A stretch of DNA of 64,000 nt from Klebsormidium nitens. Taxonomy: Eukaryota; Plantae; Klebsormidiophyceae. A program made the position numbers and the translations under genes. The DNA lies in contig DF237363.1 of assembly GCA_000708835.1 (NCBI GenBank), positions 18,631 through 82,630 of the forward strand, read 5' to 3'. The number at the start of each line of letters is the position of its first letter. The stretch's first letter is position 1. The notes under the pieces were generated by a model. It was not told where the DNA came from. It did not search any database and was given only the letters and a program-made list of their open reading frames with translations. Below, one piece after another: positions 1 through 37,000 of the stretch.

Positions 1-3000
1 AAGGACGTCGTGCTCTACCAGGAGGCGCCTCCGGGGCCTATCAACGGTCCCCGTGTCGTCTGCTGCATCAACTCTATCCACCGCGTGCAATTCAAGATGG
101 ACGTCGTGGGGATGGACGAGATGGACATGGTGCTCACGAACCTCAACTCCGAGGTCATGACCCAACGGGGCAGGGTGCTGTCCTGCCTCGAGGCGTTCGT
201 GGCGGGCGCGAAGGTTGTCATTGGCATGGACGCCAACATCGATTGCGCGCGGGTCATGGAATACCTCTTCATGGCACGCCCGGATGCGGCTCTCCACACC
301 ATTCGAAATAGAGGCTTGTATCCAGCGGCGAGGCGTGCGACCATCCGGGTCTTCTCGCAAGCGAGCGAGTCGCTCGAATGTATCGGCACCGCCGTGCAGG
401 ATGTGTTGGACCGTGTCGCCCGAGGCACGAAAGTTGTTGTGAGTTGTCTCTGAGTTTTTTGGGAACTAATCAGCCGCTCTCGCTGTTAACAGCGGAACGA
501 GCTGGCCTATGATCTCGAAAGGGCATATCTTCGTGCTGCTCCCAAGTTTGTTGCACGAGGTTGAGTAGGCATTCAAGCTGCTTGGAGTGTGGTCACGCTG
601 AAATGGGCTTGTGGGTCTGTACTTGGGGCTGTGGTCAGACTGATTTGCGGCTGCAATCAGCCTTGATTTTCACCATTGTGGTAGGCCTGGGTTTGGAGGC
701 TGGGTTTCGAGCTGCAATCAGGCTATTCGGGGATGCATATGCGATCGATTGGGCCCACGAACAGGCTCTTTCCAGGCTGCTGTTGAAGAGTTGTGGGCCC
801 AACTTCTTTGAGCTGCCTCCAAAGGCTGTGGTCAAGACCATTCTCAGATTGCGGCCGGACTATTGGGGTCCGCTTATTCGGGGCTTGGTTTGCGATGAGT
901 CTTTGTTAGACAAATGCACATCCCCTTTTTGTCCAAGCCAACAACTTGCTCCGCCCTCCTTATGCAGTGCCCTTCGACCTCCAAGCGCTTCGTGAAACAC
1001 CTTGAACATCATTTCAACGTCGAGTTCCCGCCCGCCGAGCCCCAAAAGCGCGGCATCTTTCTTCATGCCGACAAGAGGTCGAAGGCCGATGAGGACTTCT
1101 TCCAGAAGGCAATGGCCGAGCCAGACACCTTCTTGGAGGCGGACTGCGTGGCCTTCTCTCCAAAACTCGGCCCCGGCGTTTCAAAAGAGAAGCCGTACGC
1201 CGAGGAGACGGTCGCTTTCGCTCTTAACAGCCTCAACGGGCCTGATGTTGAGACGCTTCTCCAGCAGCACGCTCGCTTCCGGACGGTCACCAACTCCACC
1301 ATCGACTACAAGCAGGTGGTCTCGTCAGCAGTGGATCTGCCGCGCTCTACCGAGGCGGTCTTCCAGGCGATCGAGCGGGACGACAGACAGATTGTCAAGA
1401 TGCTCGGCGACGCCTCAGGCTTCCATTTCCTGAGGGGCTCGCGTGGCATCTGTGACCGATCCTCAGCGAGCTGCGTCTTGTACGCAAACAACATCCTCGC
1501 AAAGGTGGAAAGCTATCTGGAGTTCGTGCCGAAGCTGAAGGCCGACCTAGAGAAGCAGGGCTACGAGGTGACGGTTGAGCACATCGAACCAAGGGTGAGA
1601 TTGCCGAACGTTCGAAGCAGCTTCAGCTTCCTTGTGTTGCAAACTCATTCGGTTTTGAAGTGCTTAGTCGAGATCAAGAGGTTGAGTCGATTCGCACTAG
1701 GGCGACTGTATAGAACCGGAGATGCAATTGACAGCCTCTGTCCAAGGGCTTTCTGGGCACCGGAACGACAAGAGGAAAGGGGTCGAGTCAATTTGCACTG
1801 GCGTCAAGAATTGACTAGGCTGCTTCAGTTCATTGGAAAAAAGCTTGCAAGGCAGGGGCCACCGGATAATCAAAGCTTCCAGAAGGTGACTGGACGTTTC
1901 AGACATGTTATTTTGTTATGTGATCCATTGTCATATACCTTTCAGAGATCAAGATTTCAAGACAAGTTATGGCTCGATTTGAGAGTAAGGAGACATGCAT
2001 ACCAATCCTTTGAGGCTATATCGCGTTTGCGTCTGCAAGAGAATCAAACTCTCACCCTTTTACTTTCCAGGGCAACCTTGGGCGTCCACCTCCAGAGGTG
2101 CCTCTCGGCTTTGATCCGGACCCAGAGCTTCTGAATGACGAAGACTGGCGCGCCAGATACATCATCAACGTGGACCAGTACGAGCGTTTGTGCGAGAGGC
2201 CGGAGGAGTTGAGTCAGAGGGAGCAGCTCCAGGAGTATCTGCTCGAGATGGTTACAAATGAGTACAAGGTCGACCCTAGGCGGGTTGATCACAGCTTCTA
2301 CCTTCGCTCCTGCGCTGATACGGACGAAGCAGAGAAGACGAAAGAGGCTCACGCAAACTACCTTAGGTGAGCTTCTCAAGCGGCCGCGCGTTGCCGCTCG
2401 AGCAAATGTCAAAACTCTTCTGCACCCTTCACTTCGGCTAAATGTGGACGTTTGGGTTTGAAGAGTGTAGCACATGTCTGAAGCCAGAGCGTCTTTCTGT
2501 GCCCTCACTGCAATGAGTCGAATCTTTCTATTTGCTGCCCCCTAACGATGATTGCGCTATGCAGATTTCGTGAGCACCGCTTCGCCACCCTCGCCGGCGA
2601 TCTGGACAGAGCGCTGGGCCAAGTCAACGAGTTCGGCGTGGTCCAGGAGTACGTCAAGGTCGTCCGCGACCCCCTCAACCGCGTGCCGTTTGCGGCCCGC
2701 ATCCTTGCCTTCCTAGTCGGTTGCGAAGAGGAGCAGCTAGACCATGGAGCGGAGCTGTGGGAGGTCTCGGAGGAAAGCGTGCAGGCCGCCTATGCGAGGT
2801 TCATCGGATTCAGCAAAGAGCAGCTGAAGACCATCTTCAACCTGTACGGCTTTGTGCAGCAGATCTCCAGGCGCTCCTCAAAAACGGCCGAAACAGGGAA
2901 CAATGAGAGAAAGGCTCAAAAGCGTAATGCAGTGGGGAAAGTTCTTAGAGCGGGCCTCGGAGTTGAGCTCCAGCTGGCAAAAAAGAGCAACAACAAATTC

Positions 3001-3108
3001 ATCTCTCCCCACCTCTTGACGCCTGCAATCTATAGGGGCTTGCATGAGCGATACGGTTCATACGATCCAGGAGTAGGGGCTGCAGAGGAGTGCATAATTA
3101 GGTTGTAA
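1..3108 (+). CDS. Origin-of-replication-binding protein (herpes UL9-like / NCLDV OBP SF2 helicase), spliced, 5' part outside window
   Basis: Exons ..438, 968-1594, 2071-2366, 2565-3108 join in frame through GT-AG introns (gtgagt/tatgcag; gtgaga/tttccag; gtgagc/cctaac..tatgcag). Motifs: CCINSIHRV, MDEMDMVL (motif II), MDANID (motif III), GTKVV|CPSTSK (IV), FSPKLGPGVS..DVETLLQQHARFR (V/VI). Family assignment from recalled motif similarity, no search run. Confidence 0.72.
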
Positions 3109-3308
3109 AGGTGGTGATTTTTGGAGAGAAGCTGCATAGATCCAGACACTTTCATTATGTATTTTAGGAGTGTACATATGATTCAATTGTCAGTCTCTTG
3201 TAGACCTTGGTAGTGTCTGGATTACGCACCGGTTGCTTTTTTTTCCATCTAACCGCGTTGCTTGCCGTGTCCGCAAATAGTTCTTTGCCTCTTTAAAGCA
3301 TGCCCTCT

Positions 3309-5640
3309 TTGTGGCATGTTGTAATCGCTTGCACGAGTCAATATGCACGGGCTTTCAAGCTTTAATGTATAGTCAATGGGTGCAATTTGACTGCCGACCA
3401 TGCCCCCGAGTCACTCGTTCTGGCATGTTGTAGTGAAAAGCTCACGTGAGTCAATATGCACGCTTTTGGAGGTTTGATGTATAGTCGATTGGTGCAACTT
3501 GACTGCTGACCATACCCGAGACTTTTTGGCATGTAGGAATCGAGTAGAATTGCGCGGGCTTTGAAGCGAGTCTACTATATAGTCGATGGGTGCAAATTGA
3601 CTGCCGACCATGCCCGAGACTGTCTGGCATATTCTGGCAACGTAGTGGATAGCTCACGCGAGTCAATATGCACGCTTTTGGATGACTGATGTATAGTCAA
3701 TTGGTGCAAATTGACTGCCGACCATGCCTGGGACCTTTCCTGGCACGTTGTAGTTAACAGCAGAAACAAGTTAAAATGCATGGGCTTTCAAGCTCTGATG
3801 CATAGTCAATTGGTGCAAATTGACGGGCAACCATGTCCGGGACCTTTCCTGGCACGTTGTAGTTGATAGCAGAAGCGAGTAGAAATGCACGGGTTTTGAA
3901 GCTCTGATGTATAGTCAAAGGGTGCAAATTGCCTGACGACCATGGCCGAGACTTTCTGGCATGTTGTAGTAGATATAGCTCACGCAAGTCAATATGCACG
4001 CTTTTAGAGGTCTGATGTATAGTCAATGGATGCAGATTGACTGACGACCATGGCCGAGACTTTCTGGCATGTTGTAGTAGATATAGCTCACGCAAGTCAA
4101 TATGCACGCTTTCAGAGGTCTGATGTATAGTCAATTGGTGCATATTGATTGCCGACCATACCCGAGACTGTCTGGGCATGTTGTAGTTGATAGTCTATGC
4201 GGGTCAATACATGCACGCTTTGGAGGCCNNNNNNNNNNNNNNNNNNNNNNNNNNNNNNNNNNNNNNNNNNNNNNNNNNNNNNNNNNNNNNNNNNNNNNNN
4301 NNNNNNNNNNNNNNNNNNNNNNNNNNNNNNNNNNNNNNNNNNNNNNNNNNNNNNNNNNNNNNNNNNNNNNNNNNNNNNNNNNNNNNNNNNNNNNNNNNNN
4401 NNNNNNNNNNNNNNNNNNNNNNNNNNNNNNNNNNNNNNNNNNNNNNNNNNNNNNNNNNNNNNNNNNNNNNNNNNNNNNNNNNNNNNNNNNNNNNNNNNNN
4501 NNNNNNNNNNNNNNNNNNNNNNNNNNNNNNNNNNNNNNNNNNNNNNNNNNNNNNNNNNNNNNNNNNNNNNNNNNNNNNNNNNNNNNNNNNNNNNNNNNNN
4601 NNNNNNNNNNNNNNNNNNNNNNNNNNNNNNNNNNNNNNNNNNNNNNNNNNNNNNNNNNNNNNNNNNNNNNNNNNNNNNNNNNNNNNNNNNNNNNNNNNNN
4701 NNNNNNNNNNNNNNNNNNNNNNNNNNNNNNNNNNNNNNNNNNNNNNNNNNNNNNNNNNNNNNNNNNNNNNNNNNNNNNNNNNNNNTAAACGTGCACGGGC
4801 TTTGAAGCTTTAATGTATAGTCAATGGGTGCAGATTGACTGACGACCATGGCCGAGACTTTCTGGCATGTTGTAGTAGATATAACTCATGCAAGTCAATA
4901 TGCACGCTTTCAAGGGTCTGGTGTATAGTCAATTGGTGCAAATAGACTGCCGACCATACCTGAGACTTTCTGAACATGTTGTAGTTGATAGATCATGCGA
5001 GTCAATACATGCACGCTTTGGAGGTCGATTTGATGTATAGTCAATTAGTGCAAATAGACCGCCGACCATGCCCGAGATTTTGAAGCGTTGTACTTGATAG
5101 CAGGGACGAGTGAAAATGCACGTGGCTTGATCTAATGTATAGTCGATTGGTGCAAATTGACTGCCAACCATGCCCGAGACTTTCTGGCACGTTGTATATA
5201 CTAGCAAAGACGAGTAAACGTGCACGGACTTTGAAGCTTTAATGTATAGTCAATGGGTGCAAATTGACTGTCAACCATGCCCAAGACTTTTTGGCATGTT
5301 CAATGTAGTGGATAGCTCATGCGAGCCAATATGCATGCTTTTGGAGGTCTGATGTATAGCCCACTGGTGCAAATTGACTGCCGACCATGCCCGAGATTTG
5401 TTGGCACGTTGGAGTTAATAGCAGAGACGAGTCAAAATGCACGGGCTTCAAAGCTTAGATGTATGGTCAATGGGTGCAGATTGACTGCTGACCATGCCAA
5501 AGACTTTCCAACTGGGCACGTTGTGATTGATAGCAGACATGATGGCAAAACGCACGGACTTCGAAACTATAATGTATAGTCAATGGGTGCAGATTGGCTG
5601 TCGACCATTGCCATAACGGAGACTTTCTGGCGCGTTGTGA
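3309..5640. repeat. Tandem satellite, ~108-112 bp unit, at least 16 visible copies, two subtypes
   Basis: Recurring core ATGTATAGTCAATTGGTGCAAATTGACTGCCGACCATGCCCGAGACTTTCTGGCATGTTGTAG about every 110 bp: 8 copies before and 8 after the N gap. Confidence 0.95.
4229..4785. other. Assembly gap (N run) inside the satellite
   Basis: Continuous Ns; the ORF-track entries spanning it are artefacts. Confidence 0.99.
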
Positions 5641-5719
5641 TTGATAGCAAAAAATTGGCATTTCGTCTAAGCAATCAGCAAATTTTTGCTCGGACATAAT
5701 AAGTTGGTTGAATTTGCGA

Positions 5720-6232
5720 ATGGACACAATCATCCGTTATCCACCAAAAGACCGAGTTGCCATTAATGACATGGACGAAAAGGTCTACAAGTCAGTGAGG
5801 TCTGCTATCACGCGGTGCTATATTGAGTTTGGTTGTATGCACACTTACCTTGATATCGGATCCTTGGCCGGCTTGCGAGCCTTGACTCACCCCTATAACC
5901 TCTCCCATATCACCCGGAAAGTTGTGAGATCCTTAATTGCAGAAGGATTTCACGCTTTTTGGGACAAGTCTCACCTACACAGCAGCTCAACGTACACAAT
6001 CTTTGTCGATTGGAGACGTGCATTGAAGTACGCCCAGAATGGGGAAAAGGCGGCCCGCCACCGGTCTCAAAACGTATGCGTAGATAACTCTGAGCGGAGA
6101 AGGGGCCTTTCAAGCCGTCTTGAGAACGTGGCAGCCGGCAGAAGCACCGATGACTCGGAGACAGAGAATGTCGAAGTGCCCTTCTTGGAAATGCTCGCGA
6201 ATCCATCGAAGCGGCCGTCTTCACCGGAATAA
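5720..6232 (+). CDS. Hypothetical intronless protein of the virus-like cassette (~170 aa)
   Basis: ATG at 5720 (MDTIIRYPPKDRV...), open to 6232, protein-like composition; no family recognised. Confidence 0.5.
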   Translation: MDTIIRYPPKDRVAINDMDEKVYKSVRSAITRCYIEFGCMHTYLDIGSLAGLRALTHPYNLSHITRKVVRSLIAEGFHAFWDKSHLHSSSTYTIFVDWRRALKYAQNGEKAARHRSQNVCVDNSERRRGLSSRLENVAAGRSTDDSETENVEVPFLEMLANPSKRPSSPE

Positions 6233-6523
6233 CTAGAGAATGTGCACTTTTAAAGAAATGGATGGCCGTGATAGGCTTGATAAAGAAAAGATGTACAGCC
6301 ATATTCACGTTTTCTAGCTTAGTCACATTTGCCTGCAAATGTGATGTTTGATAACTTTTTGAACATGGGTGCTACAACCTTTTCTGGACTGGAAAACATG
6401 CAAGAGCATTCAAGGAACTCAGAAAGTGCAGAAAATTCCGAACAGCCATATTCACTTATCTGAGGGCCTGATCTCGTTTGGTGGTCAGATATATTTTCCA
6501 AGATTATGTGAGATAAAGAGGTC

Positions 6524-7582
6524 ATGGATCGAAAAGGGAACGAACGTTCTGTAACCGTTCCAAGGACGCTCGAGTTGCTTGAAGCGGTTTTTGACGACGG
6601 CTCTAGAAAAGCAATAACGGTGAAGCAGTACGTAGCACATGTTAGCCGTCTCTACAAGGGAATGTTTGGCCCAGAGGCGGAAATCTCTAATTTTGATTGG
6701 CTTAGAGATGCAACAAAAGTGATTAATTACTTTGCCAACACGTATCCAGACAAGCTATCGATGCAAGCAACGGGCCTGACCCCGCTCCTCATTGTTGTGA
6801 AGAAGGAGTTTCCAAAAGACAACGAGCTATATCAAGCGCTCTATAGAAGGTACCAAGAGGTTCGAGAACTGATGGACAAAGCACGTCCTCCGCCTCAAGT
6901 GATGACCGAATCCGAGTTCCGAAATTGGAAGACAGTCTCGCAGATCAATGAGCGTCGCGTGGAGCTGCAGAGGAAGGTTAACCGCAACATTTTAACCAAG
7001 TCTCCCGGACAATTAACAACGGGAGACAAGGTAATCTTGATTCGCTATTTGGTGCTTTGTTTGTACAGTCAGAGCCCCACGTTGCGAAATGATTACTCCA
7101 ACCTGCCAATCATACGTTTTGAGGAAATGCACGCGCCTTCGGCAAAAGCCCTGATGAGCGGGGGCGGCAACTATCTTCTGGAGCATTCAAAGGGCCAATA
7201 TAGGATCGTCTTGAAAGAATACAAGACTTCAAAAGCCTACGGAGAGCAGAAGATCGACCTCCCATTGCGCACATGCAATGTGATTGCGGAGAGTCTACAG
7301 ATCTTTCCCAGAAAGTACCTTCTGAGCCGGATGCGCACACCGGATGAACCAATGAGCCGCAATTACCTTACAAAGTTCTGCTCCCAAATTTTTGAAGATG
7401 CGAGGGTGGGCACATGTCTTCTCAGGAAAATCTGCGTCTCGACTGCAATGAAAGATGCACCCAGCATTGTTGATCGGGAGGAGCTTGCAAAGAAGATGCT
7501 CCACTCGAGCACCATGCAGATGTACACCTATGAGAAAAAGTACAATCCAGACGGGTCGAGGATCCAATTTGCTGATGCTTAA
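6524..7582 (+). CDS. Tyrosine recombinase/integrase (Polinton-like virus / virophage / NCLDV type)
   Basis: Intact 352-aa ORF with catalytic residues in order: PTLRNDY (R), EYKTSKAYG (K), TCLLRK (H-x-x-R position), MLHS (H/W), YTYEK (Y). Confidence 0.82.
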   Translation: MDRKGNERSVTVPRTLELLEAVFDDGSRKAITVKQYVAHVSRLYKGMFGPEAEISNFDWLRDATKVINYFANTYPDKLSMQATGLTPLLIVVKKEFPKDNELYQALYRRYQEVRELMDKARPPPQVMTESEFRNWKTVSQINERRVELQRKVNRNILTKSPGQLTTGDKVILIRYLVLCLYSQSPTLRNDYSNLPIIRFEEMHAPSAKALMSGGGNYLLEHSKGQYRIVLKEYKTSKAYGEQKIDLPLRTCNVIAESLQIFPRKYLLSRMRTPDEPMSRNYLTKFCSQIFEDARVGTCLLRKICVSTAMKDAPSIVDREELAKKMLHSSTMQMYTYEKKYNPDGSRIQFADA

Positions 7583-7633
7583 GCCTCGATGTACCTTTCG
7601 CAAGTTGAGCATAGTTGCGGCGTATGAGGAGAT

Positions 7634-7969
7634 TCAGCAGGCCTCACCGACCATATACGACGAGATCTCTCCCGAAACGTGATCATCGGCAACGGATGGC
7701 AAGATTGCGGCTGGCGGTATTAAATATCCTGCCTTTTTCAGCCTCTCGAGAGTCTGATTGTGAAACTTCTTGGTATGGCCTGCAATATAACGCGCATACG
7801 CTCTTTGCATCAGAATCCTTTCTTGATTGCGGCCATAATAGGCCCTCACGTGCGCTTTGTGCCTCTCTGGATGCATTTGCTGGTGACGTCTATGGTTTGT
7901 GCAAGCGCGGCATGGACATGGTCGGGTGTAGTCCTCAAAGCTACCAGCATCTTCAAAGGCCATGGACAT
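7634..7969 (-). CDS. Small hypothetical protein (~111 aa) divergent from the primase gene
   Basis: MSMAFEDAGSF... with CPCRAC and an RAYYGRNQERI basic helix reminiscent of small viral DNA-binding proteins; starts ~100 bp from the primase ATG. Confidence 0.5.
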   Translation of the reverse strand: MSMAFEDAGSFEDYTRPCPCRACTNHRRHQQMHPERHKAHVRAYYGRNQERILMQRAYARYIAGHTKKFHNQTLERLKKAGYLIPPAAILPSVADDHVSGEISSYMVGEAC

Positions 7970-8070
7970 TGTCCCTATGTTATTGCTAGGAAAAAAAGCT
8001 CGCCGTTCAACCGCAGAAAACAACAAGGTGCGTTCGGATCCATTGGTTTTTTTCTGATGATCATGACAGA

Positions 8071-10837
8071 ATGGCTGCACCAGGCCACCAGCACGCTATT
8101 GTCGATCCCAAGGCCTCGATCAAAAGTATTAGAGATGAGATCCAACGGCTTTGCGACAGAGGGCTATATGCAATTCCCGTACACCTCAGCTGGGATGCAA
8201 AGCAGGCCAGGAAGATTGCAGTGTTTCCCCCTACATACAAACATATCACGACCCCAGAGCTGTGGGGGGATTCTATCAATGACGCACTGAAGCAGATAAG
8301 GCAAGACGCCAATGCGATAGGAATCCTCTGTGGCCCCAGTGGTATCTTTGCAATCGATGTAGATGTGGCCAGTACAAAACAAAAACGAGCGGGAATGGAG
8401 CTCTGGCGCAAGCTTGTCGAGAAGCACGGTGATCCTCAGACTCTCAAAGCAAAGACGGGCTCGGGTGGACTTCATCTGTATTTTAGGGCAGACTCGCCGG
8501 GTCTAACGCAAACCAAAAATTTTGCAACAATCTTGGTGGATAGCATCGTATATGCACTGGATGGCCGAGGTGTTGGAGGTTGCGTCTTTGTTCCACCTTC
8601 AAGCTACATTGATGGCCAGGGCAGGCTTGCAGAATATGAGTGGATCAATGGGCCCCCAAGCTATGAAGCCTGTCAAAACATGCCCGAGTGGTTGGTGCAA
8701 TTGACAAATAATCATGATAGTGACAACCCAGTGACGGACGTGGAGGACAAAATACAGGTGAATTGGGGTTTAGAAGACAGCGCATTAAACTGCAAACAAA
8801 GTGTTTCGTCGATTAAGACCACACCAATTCAAGCAAGACCGTCCCCAGACCTGCGCAACGCAGTTGCATTGCCGAGATTAAAGCATACAATCCAGGAGAT
8901 TGAGAGGCTCTTGCGTGATCAAATGCCAAATGATATGAGCATCTTCAACGGTGTGGGAGAAAAAACTTCAAATGGGTGGCAGATTCTCAAGTTTAAAACC
9001 AACGGTGTGCGCACTTGCTTGAATGGCCACCAACACGTCTCAAATCAGTTCAGCATTCTGAGCAACGGGGGCATACTCGTATATCGTTGTTTGAGTGCCG
9101 AATGCATTGACAAGCCCAAGCGATTGTTGAGCATCTATTTTTGGCCTGAGTGCCTTCCTCTTAGAGCCGAAGGGGGGCTCTTTATAGCTTGCGAACGCTA
9201 CGTGCTCTCTTTTGAGCCATCCACAGGCAATGGCAACGAAATAGAAAACAAAAAAAAAGATGGCACTGAACGGTCAAAGAAAGCCAAATTGGATCTGCAA
9301 GATCTTGTATTGCGCATCATGAACCACTAATTTGCCGTCGTCCGCTCAACAAAGGCTGTCTATCTCGAGACAATCTACTCAAAGGATGCCAACGGTTGGC
9401 TTCAGCCTGAGGAGACCATTGACCGGTCCGGCCGCGACTTCCTAGAGGTATGCAGGAACTTCCAGCTCCAAAGCCTGCCGGGAAAGAGCAAGGAGATTGC
9501 CAAATTTTGGGAGAGCAGCTCTAAACGGCGGGAGTATGATCAGATTGTGTTTGAACCGGACACATCAAAGGTGTCTTTGCGGCAATTCAACATGTTCTGC
9601 GGATTAAACTTCCAACCAGTCGACCGCAAACTTTCAACACCGGAGCTTCTACAATGCAAGGAACGGATGCCGAAGCTCTTATGGCACATCCGCCACATTT
9701 TATGTGATGGCTCGGATGAGCGGTTTGACTACAATATTCGGTGGATTGCGCATTGCGTTCAGAGGCCTTGGAGAAAGATTCAAGTGGCCCTTGTCTTTCG
9801 CGGACCCCAAGGGTGCGGCAAGTCAATATTGTTTGACTTCCTTGGAACCATGATCATTGGCATAAAAAACTACTTGTATTGCAATGAGATTGAAAAGATC
9901 ATTGGCAAGTTTAATTCTTTGGGTGCCAACAAGCTTCTCATTGTCTTTGACGAGGCGGGAAACTGGGGAGGAGCGTACAGAATGAATGATCGGATGAAGT
10001 CTCTAATAACGCAAGAAACGACGTGCTTGGAGCGAAAAGGAAGAGACCCGATCACCGTGCAAGATAAGAGCAATATCGTGTTCACGACAAATAATGCATG
10101 GCCGGTGAAACGAGAGGCTGATGATCGACGGTACTCTTGCCAAGAATGCTCCGGTACCAAGGTGGGAGACAAACGGTACTTTGATGAGCTTTTGGAAGAG
10201 TTGCGGAATCCAGACATTGCTTTCAATTTCCACCAATACCTATCGTCTCTTGACCTCTCTAAGTGGGATCCTCGAAGAATTCCACTTACGGCGTGGGGAG
10301 AGGGTCTCAAGGATCACTCAATTCCATCACATGTGATGATGATGCAAGCGCTGCTTGAGAATGGATGCTTTCATCCTTCTTTGGAGACGTGGGTAGCATC
10401 AAACGACATTAAGCGGACGTATGATAAAGTTTTGCTGCAGATGGACATCAAAGAAGATCGCCAAACGAACCTAAACTTACGTCTTGGTGAGCTCTCTAAG
10501 CGCCATTTTCAAGATGCGGCCGCAAGCGCGCAGCATTCAACATATACGAACGCACAAGGGCTGGTACTTCCCTCCACAAGACGCCATATGCGAGGCACTT
10601 CATGTTGGAAAGTTGCGAAGTACAACCGTGGAGTGGCTCGGCATATGGGAGCGGGTTGAGTACATCGAGGACGAGCAAGGGCCATGGATTGCGGAAAGAA
10701 GGGATGACAATAAAGAGGTGCAATTGTCTGAAAAGGACCGCGTGTGCACGCATTGCTCAGACAGTCATGTGTGTGAGGGATGGAAGGAGCTCCGAGATGA
10801 GAAATTGTTGCGTTTCAAAACCCAATGGGTGTCATAG
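8071..10837 (+). pseudogene. Bifunctional primase-polymerase (Prim-Pol) + Zn finger + D5-like SF3 helicase, disrupted
   Basis: Prim-Pol motifs AIDVD, KTGSGGLHLYF, DGRGVGGCVFVPPS; Zn finger CLNGHQHVSN..YRCLSAEC; Walker A GPQGCGKS, Walker B IVFDEA, motif C FTTNN. An in-frame TAA at 9328-9330 is followed by an open frame into the 9547 ORF; a frameshift near 10485 moves the C-terminus (KGWYFPP) into the 10484-10837 frame. Confidence 0.88.
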
Positions 10838-10870
10838 AGGTTCCACATGGCTTGTTACCTTTTCATTACC

Positions 10871-10893
10871 CACACACACACACACATACACAC
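10871..10893. repeat. (CA)n microsatellite
   Basis: cacacacacacacacatacacac. Confidence 0.85.
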
Positions 10894-11123
10894 ATGACTA
10901 TACCCATGAACAAACCCGCAAGACACATAGTCTATTACCCTATTACCGTATTACCTATGGTATCTTGCAATACCACTTTCTTGCGAGAGCACCACATGAC
11001 AAAAAAACATATGAAACATGTAAGATTTGAATGAGTGGGTAATAAGGTAACGCGTAATACAGAGTTTTTATCTGGGGCCAACTCCCCTTTGAGTGGGAAC
11101 CAAAAGCACGGCGAATGTTTCAA

Positions 11124-14100
11124 TTATTGTTGCAACAATCGAGTTCGCACCCCAGCCGTCCACACGGCTGCTGCTATTGCAATTGCAAGCTTGGAATCGT
11201 CGACCCTCTTGAGCGTCTGGTTGTAGCCGCCGAGGAGCAGAGGCAATATGACCATGAAACTTTCGAGCCCCGAGTACCAACCTAGACTCCTGAACCCCTT
11301 CAGAAAGGAGTTCACCGACTCCACTGCACTAGTGTTCACCCAGTGAAGGAACGGGTAGGTGTCCGGGCAATTCGAGGGACCACACTTGTGTACCTCCTGG
11401 CCAGCCTTTGAGAAGTGAAATCTGTAAAACATGAAGATATACATCAATCCTGAGATGAGAATCGATGTACAACATTTCAAATTAACATTCACAGCTTTGG
11501 AGCCGCTCTGTCCAACTCCAGAATGAATCCCAATGTACACGCAACGGCAGATGACCACAACTCCACTCAATGTTATGCAACAAAGCCCACGGCTAGAGGC
11601 AGCTCTTTACACAGATTGTCCAGCCATGCAATTATGTGAAAGCACGCACCTGTCGACGACGAATCGAACCTTGGCAAAATGCGCCCCTTCCCGCCGCATG
11701 CAGTAGTTGCGCAAGGCACAACCATTGTCGTGAACCACGACCTCTGGCAAGTCCTCCCGCCTCAGCCGAGTGTAGAGCACAACAAACGCGTCCCTTGGGC
11801 TCTCTCCGCGTAGCATCACGTGGAAGCCATAGATGCACCTGTGGGGGCACGCGAACACATAGCCCCCCCTGCTCCTCTTTGGCCGCTTACTGGCACTTCC
11901 CTTCTTCCCCGAGAGCTTTCCGGCCCCTTTCACCAATCCGGGAACATTCTCAACGTCCCACTCCGTCATCGACTTCCCCGTTGCGCACTTGTTCTCCTCC
12001 GAGCTTCTACTGCGGCCGCCCGGATGCTCGAAGCTGCTATACCAGGGCAATCCCCGTTTCTGCTCCCATCCGGGAAACGAGTAGCACGCCAGGGCGTCCT
12101 GTTCGGCTCGGAAGGCATGCCCCGTTGGCAGCGGGTGAAGCTCTTCCCCGTTCTCATCTTGCCCCAGCCTCTCTCTCAGAAGCGAGCGCTCATGAGCGCT
12201 CATGTCCTCCCATTGCTGGGGGCTTGGCTCCAACCTTTCGACCCCTGGCAGCAATTTGTTTGCCAGCCCGCGCGCCTCGTCCAACTGCCGTCGCTCCTCG
12301 ATGCTAAGGGGACGTGCTCGAGCCTTCGTAAGAAGGTTGACAGCTCGGTTAAAGGGGTCGAGCGCCTCGTGCACCCAGCCGCGCCGCCCATCGGCATCGA
12401 AACCCGTTGCACCCCTTAAAAAGACGGTGATGAGGTAGAGATGGTAGAGGGTGCGCGTGGAGAAGGCCGGAAACGTGAGGCCGCCGTACGCGTCTAGGAT
12501 GCGTCGCAAGATGGGCGCGTCCCTTGCCAAGTCTCGCCTGTCCTCGAGAGTTGCCTCGCTCCCCAGCAAAAGCCTCCGGATCACGTGCAATGCGCCAGGT
12601 CCGATCAGATCCTCGTCGCTGTCATGCGCGCCCAGGCAATAGAGGATTTCCGTCCACTCTCCAACCCAGTGCTGCCACAGGTCTGGGCTCAACCCTCGCC
12701 TCTCAAAGTCACCCTGGATCCCCGTCAGCAACTTGAAGACGGCCAGGTTCCGGTCTCGCACCATCGTGCGCTGCTCAGTAAGCATGCGCCGTCTGCCGTC
12801 CTCGGGAAGCGACCTCTCCGCCTCATCCGGCCCGAAACGCTTCACGGTCTGGGGGTCCTCGTGAGCCAGCCCGTTCAGGAGCGCATTGAACTCCGTCTTT
12901 GACAACCTCTCCCCGAGCTTTCCGTCCCGCGGCCTGTGTTGAGAGAGGCGTGCAAGCGCTTCTCGCAACTCGGGTAGCAGCAAGAGCTTGCGCTTCAAGC
13001 CGCCTCCTCGGAGACTTGCCCCGCAGTAGTCGCGACCGGAGATGGGCCGCTTCTCAAGGAGCTCCCCCGCAGAGGTGCGGCTAGGATGGCAAAACGTCCT
13101 TCACGCGTCAAGCAAAGAGCTCCCAAGACCCCCCGGCTTCTGCGCGCCGTCCGCGCTGGCTAAGCCCACTATGCCGTCGCAGATGAGCACCTTGAAGAGG
13201 AGTGAGTAAACGAGTATGAGTCAACGGGTATGTAGAGCGGATATTGGATCAAAAGTGCATGACACATGATCGACCACTCAATTAGGAGATTGAAATCTCA
13301 ATGAATGTCGATTGAATATTGTTGAATCTACACGCATTGATGTCATTGGGTGTGCACTCACTATCAGCAAATGTACACTGATTGTGAAAGAATGTACACT
13401 CATCATCGTCAGACATCGACATCGCTACGGTCACAAAATTGGACAGACAGCAAAGACAGGACAGACAGAAGAATCTTGTGACCGCCAGCCATGTGGCTCA
13501 CATTTGGATGTGGTCCACAGAGCGAGCAGCAATCCCGAAGCCCCAGCCCAACCAGCTTGAAGAAGTCGAGGCTCGCCCGACGCCACGTCTCCTCGCTCAG
13601 AACCGCCGCGGTTGGGGTGTACTCGAACGCGGCCTGATCGCGCGCGAGCACGGCTCTGAAAGATTGGCCGCTTTGCATGCCTCGCAGGAGGAGCTGAAGG
13701 CTTTGTTGATGAAAAAGCGTACGTTTTGACCAGACGTAGAGCCCGAAATGCTCCCCGTCAAAGTGGACGGCATGGGCCCGGTCCAGGCACGAACAATGGT
13801 ACAGCCGTACTCGCACCTTCTTGCTCCACGCCGACGCCTCAACGGTGGCCTCTACCCAGGCCTCCACCCATTGAGTTCCGCAAGGGGGTGCTTCAATTGG
13901 GCAAGGGGCGCTCAGGAGGCCGCGTCGGGAGAGCTCGGCAAAGTGGCAGTCTCTGAGCTCGCTCAGGGGCACGGGGGATTGGAGGCACGTGACCAGAGGG
14001 TCGTGGACAGTTGAGGCGTCGCTGGGCCTTGCCAACTTTGGTTTGGAAACCTGAATGGCTTCCGTAGTCAGCAGCATCACAGGACATTGGGCCCGTTCGT

Positions 14101-15259
14101 GAACCGCGTGCGCGCAAGCGCCTTCGGCCTTTAGCGAGCTCAGCGTACAGCTCGAGCAGGCCGCAACCCAGCCGTGGATGGCCTCCTTCCCGCGAGCGTC
14201 TAACGGCGGCACCGTCCCCTCAGGTTCCGCCGGTCGGCCCTGCCCTAAGATGGGCGCACGTGCTTGCTTCTCCCAGAAACTCTTGCCCCTTCTCCTCCGC
14301 TTGCCTGCAGGCGGCTCATGAGCACCCCCTTCTTCCTCTCGTCCCATGACTCGGGTTTCGTGACCCTCCGTCTCCATTGGGCGTGCCTCGCCGAACAAGG
14401 CCGCGTGCCGTTTGCAAAAGCACCCCTCTCCTGCACACGCCGCCCCTTCGTGTGGCCGCCTCTGAAGCAGCCCCAACAAGTATTGCTGCTCACCTGTGAG
14501 CTCCCCTCCTTCTCGAGGCACGAGGCTTTCCTGCGAGGCAACCTCTGCCGGTACCGCCTTTCCACCCCCGATTTGCGGCAACTCCCCTTCGATCCATTTC
14601 TCTAACCAAGCAATTGCTGCCTTGGCAAATGGGGCCAATCCAAACGCCAGCCTCGCGCAGTCCGGCACATCCCCTTTTGCAAGAGCAGCCCGCGCCGTGC
14701 TTATGTGGACGCACTCTGTTAGCGATGGGCAACCGTCCCTCTTCCCTTCGCAGTACCAATTTCCGGCAACACTGTGAAAGAGCATGCGCCGCTTGGGGCA
14801 CGAGGGGCTTCTGGGGTTGTCGACCACCGCATAGTACGACCCCTTGCCGTCCCATGAGACCCGCTCGACGCTCACTCCCTGCCCAAGGGCCTCACTGGTC
14901 GGCAGCTCTCCGTTTGGAGCCCAGCTCTCGCTCAACGCCGCTAGAACCAGCTTGTGAACACACGGAGCGCTCTCCGTTAACCTTCCTCGATGACACGTGC
15001 AGCAGAGCACCCCAAGAGCGTTCCACCTCGCCATCTCCTGCAGCGCGTGGCTCTTGTCCGGCTTTCCCAGGGGTTTTGGCCGGCCAACTCCGTTATGGTC
15101 CCAAGCGCCCATGTACATCGACAGCAACGGTGCTCGAATGCTTCCGACTGGCAGGAAGATCTGGCAGTCCTTCCCCTCATCCACTCTCCTCAGGTAGCTC
15201 AACGCTTGAGCTTTTATGCTAGTTGCGGGTGCGCGCTCCTCTCCATTTGTTTCCTGCAT
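11124..15259 (-). mobile_element. KDZ (Kyakuja-Dileera-Zisupton)-type transposase with N-terminal SWIM and CxC zinc fingers, spliced, with one in-frame stop
   Basis: Exons join as ..CSLCGPHPN|VLICDG (first catalytic Asp) and ..VVD R|FHFSKAGQEVHKC..NTSAVESVNSFL (intron 11649-11422). Also GGYVFACPH..GESPRD and HDNGCAL; SWIM-like CxC..CxH motifs (CCTC..CVH, WYC..CVH, CSSC..CAH); CxC domain PCPIEAPPC..YHCSC..FDG. In-frame TGA at 13103-13101. Confidence 0.8.
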
Positions 15260-16203
15260 GGGCCCAGAAGGTCGACAAATGATGCATATGCTCCATTGGG
15301 CAGCTCAAACGTAATGTTTCCAAATCGATCAAAATCACGCGTCTTGAAGAGGTCCTTAAGCTTGTGACCCCCCAAAATACAATCAGGTTTTCTATCGATA
15401 ACTCTCAGGAGCACGTCAAAATTTCTGTCAGGCCTCTTCCTATTGATATTCCGAATGCACTGGCAAGTGTAACAATTCTCATGGAATTTGCAAAGCTCGG
15501 AGCTCCCTTTCAATCTGGCTTGCTGGGCCGCAGCTGTCATTTTGTCCTGATGCTACTAATGAAAGAAAAGAAGTTTGATGTCATTTGTCCTCACCGGCGC
15601 TTCAGGCTCGCGCACTCTTGGTTGCAATCCCTTGGCGCCACCTTTGTTGATAACCTGCTCAGCAGCCGTGAGCTGACGCTTTTTACGCTCTACGGTGCCC
15701 TCGTTCTGGCCTCTGAGAAACGAGATCAACGCGTCATCTAGCGCCAATACCTGCGTCCAGTAGCCAGCGGGATGCTGCTGTAGAATTGATGTGTTGGCAC
15801 CATCATCCAGCCGCTCGCTTAACGCAATGGTCCTGCCGTCGGCTGCTTCCACAACCTTGCCAAGTAGCTTCCCTATGCAGCTGAGGCAAACAAGAGACCT
15901 GGCCTGCTTTGCTCGGGGCACCTTTGCGCTGATGAGATAGCCTCTCTGCACTCCATTGGATTGCTGTCCTTTCCGAAACGCCAGCCGCAAGCAGCCCTCT
16001 TCGTCCTTAACCCATAGCTGTTGTCTACATGTCAGGCACTTGACCGCAACGCGCTCTTGGCAGCTGGGGGAGTCAACCCTAAAGTGACCTGAAGCTATAT
16101 GGTCGAATGTAGGTTTGTCTAACCTTATTCGTTCACCACTGCTAACCAAATCCACCTCTACTACAGCCATTTCCAACCCCCACTGCCTCAGATGGGATGC
16201 CAA
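15214..16203 (-). CDS. Cys-rich accessory ORF (or frameshifted 5' part) of the KDZ element
   Basis: ORF 16203-15556 can splice (YWTQ|gtattg ... catcag|DKMTAA) to ORF 15540-15214; CxxC pairs (CLTC, CLSC, CYTCQC). Its stop lies 45 nt past the transposase ATG. Confidence 0.45.
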
Positions 16204-32506: not shown

Positions 32507-33061
32507 ACGCCATGTCATAAGGTTGCCGGTTTAGTGAAGAGATACGAGACAGGTAACTTGTGTACTTTGAGAAGGCTATGAGGCTCACAATCAACGGGCG
32601 TTTCTACCTAGTCTGGATACGAACCAAGTAGGACTGGAACCTGTTTATACATACTAACGACTTGCAAACATTGTATCACGATACTCATACACGCTGTGCA
32701 GCCTACGGTCTAATTTCTATATCAACTTGAAATACATTCCCGGTCGAGATTTCAAACAGCATGACTGTCCGATTTGGTACGTCTCTCCATGGCACAGCGT
32801 TTCGTTGGAATGAAGGCGATATGTATGAAATCGATCTGTCATCAGTGCTAGCTAGACAAATATGAGGCATGATTAAGCTGGCACGTGCATATACGTATGT
32901 ACAGGGGCCCCGGGGCGCGCGCGTGCGGCTGACGGCCCTCAACAAGTTCAGACGGTGGTCACGTTAAATTGTCGAGAAGAGCATGTACGGTACATGCAAG
33001 CATGGAATTTCTCACCCTCGTCACTTGCACCATGGCATGCATTGTGGATCCGAATCTGAGG

Positions 33062-33105
33062 GGATTATGGATTGTCAAGCGAATTCGCTTGACAATCCAT
33101 AATCC
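33062..33105. repeat. Perfect 44-bp palindrome
   Basis: GGATTATGGATTGTCAAGCG-AATT-CGCTTGACAATCCATAATCC; arms are exact reverse complements. Confidence 0.95.
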
Positions 33106-34005
33106 ACTTAACTTAAGTCAATGGTTGGCTAGAACGCCATTGAAAGCTTGCTCTGCGGGTAAAATACAAAAAATGCTTCAAAAAAGCTCGTATTTAAAAG
33201 ACTCTCGGAGAATCGTTAATCTTCTGCACGTAAAAGGAGCTCGTATTGGCAATATTTTACATTAAGAAAAGCAGCCATACGCTGCTTACTATACATGTCG
33301 TTCTTGAAGGGTTAAAGCGCAGCTCGCATCAGATTGTCTTACAAACCTGCTACTGAAGCAACACAATGAGCCGCTTACTTCAAATGCTTATCAGGTTAGC
33401 ACGTCCTATTTCAAGCATACCAATGCCCGGAGGACCCGTGGCTCCAACGTCTGGAGAGCACCTCGGAGCTTCCTTCCCCCGAGATTGGTCTATGGCTAGA
33501 CGACTTGGTCACTTGGAGTCCTTTGTTGGAGGACGCCGCGCCTGGTAGAAAAGAAACGTCGCCTTAATGGACGGACTCGAAATGAGATCGTCAGCCCAGA
33601 TTTGTAGGTGTCTTTGAACTGCAGTTGAATTTGCGTACTCTATTAGCAACTTCTTTTCTTTCAAGCGGGCCTTGGAGCACGCGAAAGACGGGAATGTCAA
33701 TCAGACGGATGCACAATGTTTTCCGAAATGTTTGAGCTTCACATCTTCCTCTTGATCTTAGTCAGCAGACGCCCCCGACCCTTTAAACTAAACAATTCTG
33801 ACCTGCTTCCACAATAAGCACTCTAGCCAGTCAGCTTACAGTTGGCTAACTAAGAGCCAGCTTGGCTCCCCAATCTTGCCACTTGACCGATATATACCTG
33901 TCCTTAAGTCAGATCCAGGTCCCCGGAGTTCTTAGGGTACAAAGTATGCTTTTGCAGCAGCACAACCAACTGCAAAGGCTTAGGATACCACAGAACTTGC
34001 TCAAG

Positions 34006-37000
34006 TCACTTACCCGCACTCTCCGCGCCCCCGTCCTTCCCCTCGGCCAGCCGCTGCACGATCTCGCTCAGCCCGCGCAGCTTCTCCTCCAGCCCATCTA
34101 GTTGCTTCAGCACCTGCTCCTTCTCCCGCTTCTTCGACCTGCTCCGCTGCAAACTAGGTCGGGGGGCTTCCCCCGGGCGCTTCCTCAGGGTCATGTCACG
34201 TGGCACCAGGACGTGCAGCCACGCGGGGAACCACTCCGGGTTGCACCGCTCGGCGGTCGACATATTGGTTTCGATGAGGAAGAGCATCTGGGCGCGGCCT
34301 CGGAGAAAGTGAACCTCCGCTTGCTTGCGCATCTTTTCGAACGTGCGGCTGATGATAGCGATGAGCACCGTCAGCATGATGATGGCCACGACTGCACGAG
34401 AAGAGGGGAGAGACGTCAGCATGACGTTAGCCACGACTGCACGAGCAGAGTGGAGCGACGGGGTCCAGAAGTTGCAAACGGGATTCCGAAAAGAGGGCCT
34501 ACGGGTTCGCTTGCGAACGGGTCGAACGCGGCGAGATTGGACACACAGTGCCGTCGGAACGATGATAACCACCCCTGCGGGTTTGACTGGGCGAGAGACG
34601 TAAAAACAGACCTTGACACAAAGCTGCGTGCGCACTGGAAATAAGTAGAGAGGGAACGGAACAATGGAACAGCTTTTACAGGGCAAGGCTACCAACAGGG
34701 CCTCATACGTCAGGCGTGCGGCAAACATGGCACGGAGAGGTACGGCAAGCAAGAGTACAAGCCCTAAACTCACTAACGATGGACGACGGTCCACCAAAAG
34801 AACGGATAGCCAAACTTCGGCAACATGAAGACAGCAACGCCGGTTAGATTTACGGCAGGCCGACGGCAGACACGGTGGCAGGAACGGCGGCAAAACACGA
34901 AACCAAACTGGCAGAATGGGATTGAGGCAGCATCAATTGTGACCGGAAGGCCGGAACGAGAGCGGAACAGCGGGATTAGAGCGGAACGCCGGAGCCGGAC
35001 CGGGCCTTACTGAGCATGAAGACGAGGAAGAGCGCGGTGGATGCCCAGCGGATTGTCTGCGGCTTTGCGTTGATGAAGGGGCACATGTCGACCTGGCCGA
35101 ACATGGACTGGAACAGGAACACCGCGCTGCGGGGCCAGCTCGAGAACGGGTCGTACGACACGCCGCAGCGCTCTTGCACGCGCGTCGAGAGCCCGTCCGC
35201 ATAGAGAAGCGTGTACGCGAGCGAGAAGGAGAGGAGAACTAGAAGGAGGACTACGAGGAAGGCTTTTATGTCGGCGACCACTTCGAGGAGCAGTGAAACG
35301 AGCGGACCGAACATGGAGAATGAAGTAAAGATCCAGAGGCCGCGCATGCAGATGAGGAGCGCGGACGCGGCGGAGACGATGTTGGTTGCGGAAACTAGGT
35401 TGGGGGGCACGGCGCCGAGGCCGCCCGCGCCGCGGTATGAGATTTGCGCCCAGATGAGGCCGACGGTGGCGGTGGTCATGAAGTTGTTGAGGAACCACAC
35501 GAGCGCAATTGTGCGCGGCTGGCCCTGCTTGGAGAACCAGGTGCGGCGGTACCTGGAGGAAGGAAGAAGAAAGAGCAGGGTTCTAGACTGAGATCTAGGC
35601 CGGTGATTTCTGAGTTACAATCAGGCAGACATGTGCATTCTGGTCTTGCTTGGAGAACCAGGTGCGGCGATACCTGGGGGAGGGAGGAAGAGAGAGCCGG
35701 GTTCTAACTCAAGATCTGGCGGTTCTTTCTGGTTTACAATCTGGGCAGACATGTGTGCTGGCCCTGCTTGGAGAACCAGGTGCGGCGGTCCCTGGGAGAA
35801 GGTGAAAGAGAAAGAGCCCAGTTCTAGACTGCGACCTGGGCTGGTTCTTTCTGATTTACAATATGGGCAGACGTGTGTTGTTTTGGTCCTGTTTGAAGGA
35901 CCAAGTGCGCGGTACTTGAGGGAAGGAGGGAGAGAGAGCGGGTTCTAGACTGGAAACTGGGCCGGTGGTTCCTGAGGTACAAACTAGGCAGACATGTGTG
36001 CTGGCCCTGCTTTGTGAGGCAGATGCGGGGTATTGGAGGAAGAGAGAGCCGACTTTTTAATGTCGCGACACTTAGGAATAGTAAGCTCAAGGAATAGTGA
36101 GCTCAACCAAACACTAAAACCCTAACCCATTGAATCTACCCGCTCCGCACCCGTACCCACCCTAAACCCCCAAACTAACCCTACCCGTCCCAGGCCGGTG
36201 ATCTTACTATTCCTTGAGCTTACTATTCCTGAAGTGCTACGGTATGACTTTTAAGACCTGGGCTGAGATGTGTGGTGGCCCAGCATTGACAACCAGGTGC
36301 AACAGGATATTGGGGGAAACAATACGGAACAACCTATCCTACTCAGACGTGAAAGAACTAGACACGATACATGGAAAGACACGGACGAACTCTGCATCGA
36401 AATTGATTACCAGAGGGCTGATGAATTGATCTGTCTTCCAATCATGGATGTGATCGATAGGGAACGCAAGGGCATTGCTCACATAGAGCAAGAGGACAGG
36501 AAAAAAGAAGCAGATAAACAAATTTTGGTCATCTTCTATCAAAACCAGAGATGGAACACCGACTCCAATGACAGAAAAAAGGGGGTTAATGAGTCAGCAG
36601 CGACAATCAAGAACAAACAGTATGCAAGGTATGTCCTTCAAGATAAGGAGGATTTGGAACAGGAGCAGAGAAAGGATCTCACTTGATGAGGATCCCCAGG
36701 TGAAACACCACGAGCGTCGCGCCCGAGACATACGTCGCGCGCCCGGCGGCAGAATCCGTGCCCATGTTGGGCGACGATGTCGGAACCAGGACCACGATCA
36801 GAAACAGCAGCAGGTAGATCGTGTAGAGGACGACGGTCTTGGTAACAATCCAACGGCCGTAGGCGTTCCACTTGTGGTTCAGCAGCGCGCGCATGATGGC
36901 CGTCGTGAACACGTCGCGCGCCGTCTCGCGCGTGCAGTAGCGCACGATCGCCCAGAAGAGGTTCACTCTGCGGGGGGAAGGTCTGGTTAGTGGCCAGAAA

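What the first reader, a model, noticed from the sequence alone, without database searches (positions are those of the whole stretch)
5650..11051. Capsid-less integrative element: tyrosine recombinase + Prim-Pol/SF3 helicase in an algal nuclear genome
Seen: four tightly packed intronless ORFs, including an intact Tyr recombinase and a Prim-Pol-ZnF-D5 helicase, bounded by a hairpin satellite on the left and an inverted repeat on the right. Established: Polinton-like viruses and virophages carry such integrase/primase-helicase modules but normally also capsid, packaging ATPase and protease genes; integrase+primase-only cassettes typify prokaryotic satellites and integrative plasmids. Inference: a minimal self-replicating, YR-integrating eukaryotic element (satellite or plasmid-like), possibly dependent on a giant-virus helper, or else a deleted PLV.
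Basis: partly seen in the sequence, partly recalled or inferred. Interest (0 to 1): 0.8.

Follow-up and report, generated by a model that had tools for sequence, protein, structure and literature searches.

The report
Decayed virus-derived integrase-replicase cassette in alga
A 5-kb stretch of a green-alga genome holds an intact recombinase gene and a broken primase-helicase gene from a repeated gene family, and is most likely the leftover integration-and-replication end of an inserted polinton-like virus rather than a complete capsid-less element.

Summary
The genes are real; the 'intact, bounded element' is not shown. [quoted passage not shown] The Prim-Pol/zinc-finger/SF3 helicase gene has an in-frame stop and a frameshift, so this copy is likely dead as a replicon. 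ORF3 weakly matches a tail domain of viral recombinases; ORF1 is unexplained but too small for a capsid. The recombinase-then-helicase order recurs in 4 of 6 Klebsormidium nitens gene models examined and in a paralogous contig, so this is a multi-copy family. No capsid, packaging ATPase or protease was found in the window. The ends do not hold up: the right inverted repeat is weak and not seen in other copies, a KDZ transposase follows it, and the left 108-bp array is also joined to a UL9-like helicase gene in another copy. K. nitens carries seven published PLV capsid genes, and a free PLV-like contig shows the same gene order beside putative capsid genes. Best reading: truncated, decaying PLV end module (0.5). 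A capsid-less mobile family remains open (about 0.3); I could not read the flanks of other copies.

The parts
1..3108 (+). Left neighbour: UL9-like/CyRepA1-like replication helicase gene, spliced (runs off the window start); repeated in the genome; whether it belongs to the same mobile unit is open
   Evidence: PF02399 6.4e-09; NF042913 1.7e-12; GT/AG junctions and GC3 0.70-0.80 against 0.51-0.58 in the cassette; many diverged contigs laid on it and a joint 3179 to 3284 in a second contig
3336..5649 (.). Tandem array of about 108-bp units (217-bp higher order), each with a 7-bp dyad around an 8-bp spacer; N gap at 4229-4785
   Evidence: TRF; 16 units aligned; 90% of 112 cells paired, 0 compensatory changes; no Rfam match
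5720..6232 (+). ORF1, 170 aa, unexplained; not capsid-like by size or predicted alpha/beta content
   Evidence: 0 homologs among 84 candidates; no Pfam/PHROG/NCBIfam hit; Atlas lead DUF5759 at 0.79 only; model pLDDT 40; a diverged second DNA copy bridges array and ORF1
6233..6523 (.). Non-coding stretch upstream of the recombinase, shared with other copies; perfect 10-bp-arm palindrome at 6323-6344 between 14-bp direct repeats (6295-6308, 6442-6455); candidate attachment or operator site (inferred)
   Evidence: diverged contig over 6182-6573; P0006 aligns from 6338
6524..7582 (+). Intact tyrosine recombinase, virophage/PLV (likely OLV11-like) type, 352 aa
   Evidence: Cre/XerA top PDB folds; algal-virus and virophage proteins top in BFVD; Atlas 0.98 to viral clusters, mostly Preplasmiviricota; catalytic residues
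7634..7969 (-). ORF3, 111 aa; weak match to the basic tail domain fused to many viral recombinases of this family
   Evidence: Best of 972 window frames, 0 of 1000 shuffles as high, but only 8.6 bits (E 0.22) with a profile chosen after seeing the motif
8071..10837 (+). Prim-Pol, Cys/His cluster, SF3 helicase gene; pseudogene (stop at 9328-9330, frameshift near 10470-10480)
   Evidence: lesions present in matching contigs, and a paralogous contig differs by 4 letters in length across the frameshift zone
10933..11050 (.). Weak inverted repeat downstream of the helicase; not shown to be an element end
   Evidence: covered only by the window's own contig in X2 and one contig in X5
11124..16170 (-). 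Right neighbour: KDZ-type transposase region (spliced), repeated in the genome
   Evidence: CxC4 PF18717 E 0.001 and KDZ PF18758 E 0.12, both below curated cut-offs; many diverged contigs

Best explanation
This is a decaying copy of a repeated recombinase-plus-primase-helicase gene module, most likely the integration-and-replication end of an endogenous polinton-like virus that has lost its capsid genes at this locus. Shown: gene identities, the two breaks in the replicase gene, several related copies with the same gene order, no capsid gene nearby. Inferred: in the active ancestor the recombinase joined a circular genome to the chromosome at a site near its own gene, the Prim-Pol primed and the SF3 helicase unwound from a nearby origin (the dyad array or the 6323-6344 palindrome are candidates), probably with help from a giant virus; the inward, virion-building part was later deleted at or before the KDZ insertion. 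This copy would not replicate by itself; its recombinase could still be functional.
For: Recombinase relatives sit beside virophage capsid genes: L002 next to a Sputnik-type major capsid gene (1.9e-35), L003/L004 near a Sputnik-type minor capsid gene (2e-13). A helicase relative in a 20.7-kb viral contig (L005) has the same order, recombinase-like (+), small antisense ORF, primase-helicase (+), near the contig end and ahead of putative ATPase and capsid genes. Such end modules are described for PLVs (PMC11296320, passages and section 9). K. nitens has 7 published PgVV-group PLV capsid genes, five of them 71-86% identical to the reference copy or the reference itself (PMC10120064 Tables S1, S4, S5), a spread like that of the recombinase (51-79%) and helicase (72-81%) copies; Yrec is the most widespread information gene of PgVV-like PLVs (10.1101/2022.07.28.501842, passage). 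Decay is general: 5 of 18 aligned recombinases lack a catalytic residue, many hits are truncated. No conserved right end was seen.
Against: No capsid, ATPase or protease remnant in the window, though Pfam also missed the putative capsid of L005. 4 of 6 K. nitens scaffolds with these genes (5.7-12.7 kb) are shorter than every capsid-bearing contig (12.9-60.6 kb), so cannot contain one; 2 of 6 (24.3, 25.5 kb) could. No annotated relative came from a larger scaffold. The viral relatives are distant (23-37%) and L002 is not sister to the algal clade. The L005 recombinase-like match is weak (hhalign probability 12%) and its capsid is unverified. A second copy shares the left neighbour, which an independent virus insertion would not, unless site-specific or duplicated later. 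PgVV itself uses a TVpol, not a PF09250 Prim-Pol (PMC4642659 passage).
Confidence: 0.5

Rival explanations
1. A true capsid-less family: a 5-8 kb element that would excise and integrate with its recombinase and copy itself with its primase-helicase, as a transpoviron-like satellite or nuclear plasmid; the window holds a dead copy.
For: Gene order conserved in 4 of 6 K. nitens gene models examined and by matching contig lengths for 2 of 3 JGI helicases (38059, 38027); monophyletic, diversified algal recombinase clade (support 100); no capsid at this locus; 4 of 6 scaffolds too short for a known capsid contig; independent replication-integration modules are proposed in print (10.64898/2026.10.13.758929, section 13).
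Against: No shared ends, target duplication or circular joint seen; short scaffolds may be assembly fragments; the host genus has PLV capsid genes in similar number.
Confidence: 0.22
2. The cassette is cargo inside a larger composite repeat (UL9-like helicase gene, dyad array, recombinase, primase-helicase, KDZ transposase) that would spread by the KDZ transposase or by segmental duplication, like the Plavaka-flanked, recombinase-rich giant repeats of Amoebidium.
For: All blocks from 1 to about 16 kb are repeated in the source run; second copies join UL9-like 3' flank to array (joint 3179-3284) and array to ORF1; precedent in PMC11244446 (passage).
Against: No second copy of the helicase-to-KDZ junction was seen and the 6.5-kb paralog's last listed match ends at 10596 (table cut); codon use and introns differ between cassette and flanks; no terminal repeats found for the KDZ block.
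Confidence: 0.18
3. A fragment of a giant-virus (NCLDV) insertion that happens to hold a recombinase and an accessory primase-helicase.
For: Top BFVD folds include giant viruses of algae; one of the three best Atlas clusters is mostly Nucleocytoviricota; K. nitens holds phycodnavirus-like core genes (PMC5294986 table passage); UL9-like neighbour.
Against: No NCLDV core gene in the frames scanned; host-type genes (RanBP zinc finger, ion transport, WD40, PPR) follow to the right; the UL9-like gene is spliced with host-like codon use; many diverged copies of one small module.
Confidence: 0.1

Closest known systems
PLV replicative 'end module' (tyrosine recombinase + primase-helicase beside terminal repeats; Gezel-14T/PgVV, CBEV_PLV1, AHEV_PLV2; PMC11296320)
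   Same: Adjacent recombinase and primase-SF3 helicase next to a repeat region; proposed to be mobile as a module
   Different: No capsid module here; PF09250 Prim-Pol instead of TVpol; no terminal inverted repeat shown; replicase broken
Endogenous PgVV-group PLVs of Klebsormidium nitens (MCP cluster 86 / PC_0089; PMC10120064 supplement)
   Same: Same host genus, similar number and divergence of copies
   Different: Physical link between those capsid genes and this module is untested
Virophages with OLV11-like recombinase (PMC4642659; loci L002-L004)
   Same: Homologous recombinase family and motifs
   Different: Those carry capsid, ATPase and protease genes; only 23-28% identity
Transpovirons
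   Same: Small, capsid-less, virus-derived replication genes
   Different: Described with other enzymes (pPolB and DDE transposase in the preprint read; SF1 helicase as recalled) and terminal inverted repeats; not met here
Plavaka-flanked giant repeats of Amoebidium (PMC11244446)
   Same: Intron-poor recombinase genes in repeat clusters beside an unusual transposase
   Different: KDZ instead of Plavaka; includes a primase-helicase; co-mobility not shown

Membership tests
Tyrosine recombinase superfamily | Cre/Xer/lambda-Int fold | tested here: met
   Foldseek top hits Cre (4.6e-04) and XerA, probability 1.00
Tyrosine recombinase superfamily | Catalytic R-K-(H)-R-H/W-Y | tested here: met
   R188, K234, R301, H327, Y336; first His replaced throughout the family
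OLV11-like recombinases | Direct homology to OLV11/PgVV Yrec | tested here: inconclusive
   Not aligned to OLV11 itself; relatives lie in virophage loci and Preplasmiviricota clusters; the label is inferred
Polinton-like virus (intact) | Major and minor capsid and packaging ATPase genes | tested here: not met
   None in 74 frames of 1-19.7 kb or 23 later frames or by tblastn with 18 viral proteins; Pfam is weak for PLV capsids
Polinton-like virus (intact) | Terminal inverted repeats around 15-30 kb | tested here: not met
   No matching arms left and right
Polinton-like virus (intact) | Integrase plus replicase module | tested here: met
   replicase broken
Polinton-like virus (family origin of the module) | Other copies linked to a PLV capsid gene | not testable with these tools
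   No genome held; no algal copy in the scanned collections
Virophage (Lavidaviridae) | Sputnik-type capsids, ATPase, cysteine protease | tested here: not met
Transpoviron | Free linear form with terminal inverted repeats and its characteristic enzymes | tested here: not met
   No terminal repeats; different enzymes; free form not testable
Giant endogenous viral element (NCLDV) | NCLDV core genes in a long intron-poor block | tested here: not met
   left of position 1 not visible
Autonomous capsid-less element | Shared sharp ends, empty sites, circular junction | tested here: inconclusive
   Only assembled contigs could be laid; no joint from right end to left end among those listed, tables cut

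The most novel reading that the evidence does not exclude
Klebsormidium hosts a long-lived family of capsid-less, virus-derived elements made only of a tyrosine recombinase, a Prim-Pol/SF3 helicase and a dyad-repeat origin (possibly with a spliced origin-binding helicase beside it), a eukaryotic counterpart of bacterial integrative plasmids and the free-standing form of the PLV end module that has been proposed but not shown.
Probability: 0.3. Interest if true: 0.72.

Novelty: new member of a known kind. Interest (0 to 1): 0.4.

Why it matters
If it is a PLV remnant, it adds an undescribed recombinase/Prim-Pol family to the known PLV load of a close algal relative of land plants: useful but ordinary. 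If the family is truly capsid-less, it would be a direct example of the autonomous recombinase-plus-primase module that PLV mosaicism models predict, invisible to capsid-based surveys, and testable with one long-read genome.

Tried and rejected
No whole genome was held. Scans for algal copies with flanks found none: viral contigs with the recombinase alignment, the helicase, the array pattern, P0038 and a UL9-like exon, prokaryote genomes; the one metagenome scan gave 2 distant loci of 87 stretches. Two wide alignments were too diverse to scan. L006-L017 matched only the Prim-Pol part of P0187, had no recombinase hit and were not studied further. ORF1: no homologs, low-confidence model, no fold hit under E 0.001. 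No RNA holder was listed; no statement on expression. Contig depth was not used as a copy number. Run X5 was rejected as independent strain evidence: 221 of its listed difference places are C>T or G>A, in CG, CHG and CHH contexts alike (25 places in two contigs), which either a chemically converted library or hypermutation would give; library type is not on record. 'Assembly error' for the two breaks was rejected as far as possibly non-independent runs allow. 'Hairpin RNA' for the array was rejected. The tree is the quick version; 75 rows (length filter 240-430 aa on P0030-P0089; later hits left out), midpoint root, no clade test. Phage search gave only 26-28% helicase matches; PDB sequence searches gave nothing. 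Literature searches found no description of this family; PMC3918813 was not held; bioRxiv supplements and the gene maps of PMC10120064 Dataset S1 (pictures) were not seen and may show the K. nitens PLV gene content.
Full report
Observation. The interval holds four coding units without apparent introns: ORF1 (5720-6232), a 352-aa ORF (6524-7582), a 111-aa antisense ORF3 (7634-7969) and a long unit from 8071 to 10837. The 352-aa protein has no Pfam, PHROG or NCBIfam hit, but its model (pLDDT 75) matches Cre and XerA first in the PDB and algal giant-virus and virophage proteins in BFVD. It keeps R188, K234, R301, H327 and Y336. The long unit has Prim-Pol (PF09250) and SF3 helicase (DUF5906) domains with a Cys/His cluster between them, but it is broken by an in-frame stop at 9328-9330 and a frameshift near 10470-10480; its seven close relatives read through the stop and five of them through the frameshift zone. 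Contigs of runs X1 and X2 match 7339-9954 and 9928-11224 with no difference, so the breaks are in the sequenced DNA, although these runs may be the assembly's source.

Host and family. The only named close relatives are Klebsormidium nitens gene models, so the host is inferred to be Klebsormidium. The recombinase search gave 30 hits among 1206 candidates, 28 of them at 51-79% identity; the exhaustive search gave 1371 distant relatives. Nineteen algal-type recombinases form one branch with support 100 in a quick tree of 75 rows. The helicase search gave 12 hits among 5577 candidates, 7 at 72-81%. In 4 of 6 K. nitens gene models examined, a recombinase part is fused ahead of the helicase, so the two genes are adjacent and co-oriented there; 2 of 3 JGI helicases share their contig length with a recombinase hit. 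In the source sample a 6523-nt contig is colinear with the helicase at about 80% identity. The module is therefore a multi-copy family, and it decays broadly: 13 of 18 aligned recombinases keep all five catalytic residues.

Orphans. ORF3 scores best of 972 window frames, and above 1000 shuffles, against a profile of the basic tail fused to 15 viral recombinases, but at only 8.6 bits and with a profile chosen after the motif was seen. ORF1 has no homolog, an Atlas lead of 0.79 to DUF5759 and an unreliable model; at 170 aa it is not a double jelly-roll capsid (established size, recalled). No capsid, packaging ATPase or protease appeared in 74 frames of 1-19.7 kb, in 23 of the 42 longer frames listed, or by tblastn with 18 viral proteins. 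This negative is limited: Pfam and NCBIfam also missed the putative capsid of L005.

Ends. The left array has 108-bp units with a 7-bp dyad around 8 bp, no compensatory change and ordinary folding energy; it looks more like iterated protein-binding sites than a hairpin RNA (inference). A diverged second contig bridges array and ORF1, so the array travels with the cassette at least once; another joins the 3' flank of the spliced UL9-like gene to the array, so the repeated block may extend left of it. The right inverted repeat is marginal (5 of 200 shuffles as good), has no left partner, and was covered only by the window's own contig in X2 and one contig in X5 (tables cut). A KDZ-type transposase region begins about 290 bp after the helicase and host-type genes follow beyond 20 kb. 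No circular joint was listed.

Viral context. Distant recombinase relatives lie beside Sputnik-type capsid genes in L002 and L003/L004; L001 is too short to tell. The best Atlas clusters are viral, two of three mostly Preplasmiviricota. A helicase relative in L005 has the same order as the window, recombinase-like, antisense small ORF, primase-helicase, followed by putative ATPase and capsid genes; the recombinase-like match is weak and the capsid call rests on size and position. PMC11296320 (passages, section 9 part 1) describes such PLV end modules and suggests they are mobile; 10.64898/2026.10.13.758929 (passages, section 13) proposes autonomous replicase modules; PMC4642659 (passages) defines OLV11-like recombinases. 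PMC10120064 (passages and supplement rows) lists seven PgVV-group capsid genes in K. nitens, on contigs of 12.9-60.6 kb. Four of the six K. nitens scaffolds that hold this module's genes are too short to contain any of them; two could. PMC5294986 (passages) lists phycodnavirus-like core genes in the species; PMC11244446 (passages) describes recombinase-rich giant repeats beside a Plavaka transposase; 10.1101/2022.07.28.501842 and PMC9356565 were read as passages and do not mention Klebsormidium in the main text.

Mechanism and verdict. By established chemistry the recombinase would integrate and excise a circular form, and the Prim-Pol/SF3 protein would prime and unwind; sites, helper dependence and activity are inferred, not shown. 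This copy would not replicate in cis. I put 0.5 on a truncated PLV end module, 0.22 on a stand-alone capsid-less element, 0.18 on cargo of a composite repeat and 0.1 on a giant-virus fragment. The deciding data, flanks of other copies, were out of reach. Eight literature searches found no description of this family; unseen supplements and figure maps may hold one. Earlier scan notes on capsid-less recombinase/primase units in other eukaryotes are untested leads; three other look-ups were empty. Novelty: new member of a known kind; interest 0.4; most novel reading 0.3 likely, 0.72 if true.

Noticed in passing
window 1-3108 (+): Spliced, repeated gene for a UL9-like/CyRepA1-like replication helicase directly beside the dyad array; an origin-binding protein next to an iteron-like array would be notable.
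   Followed up: partly
window 11124-16170 (-): Repeated KDZ-type transposase region with CxC4 in a streptophyte alga; ends not found; ORF 15556-16170 has no Pfam hit.
   Followed up: partly
window 6295-6455: Perfect 10-bp-arm palindrome between 14-bp direct repeats upstream of the recombinase, in a non-coding stretch shared by other copies.
   Followed up: partly
run X5 on window 5500-11260: Differences are almost all C>T or G>A with many cytosines kept in all contexts; if the library is chemically converted, the cassette is densely methylated.
   Followed up: partly
L005:5099-5214: Perfect 22-bp inverted repeat just after the primase-helicase, inside a PLV-like genome: a hairpin at this place need not be an element end.
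   Followed up: no
L004:8799-11453: Virophage-like contig with the recombinase fused to about 580 unexplained residues, next to a YqaJ nuclease gene.
   Followed up: partly
window 33059-33108, 35518-36012, 36069-36236, 50406-50807: A 50-bp near-perfect palindrome, a 121-bp tandem array with a flanking inverted pair, and a 159-bp tandem repeat in the host-gene part of the window.
   Followed up: no
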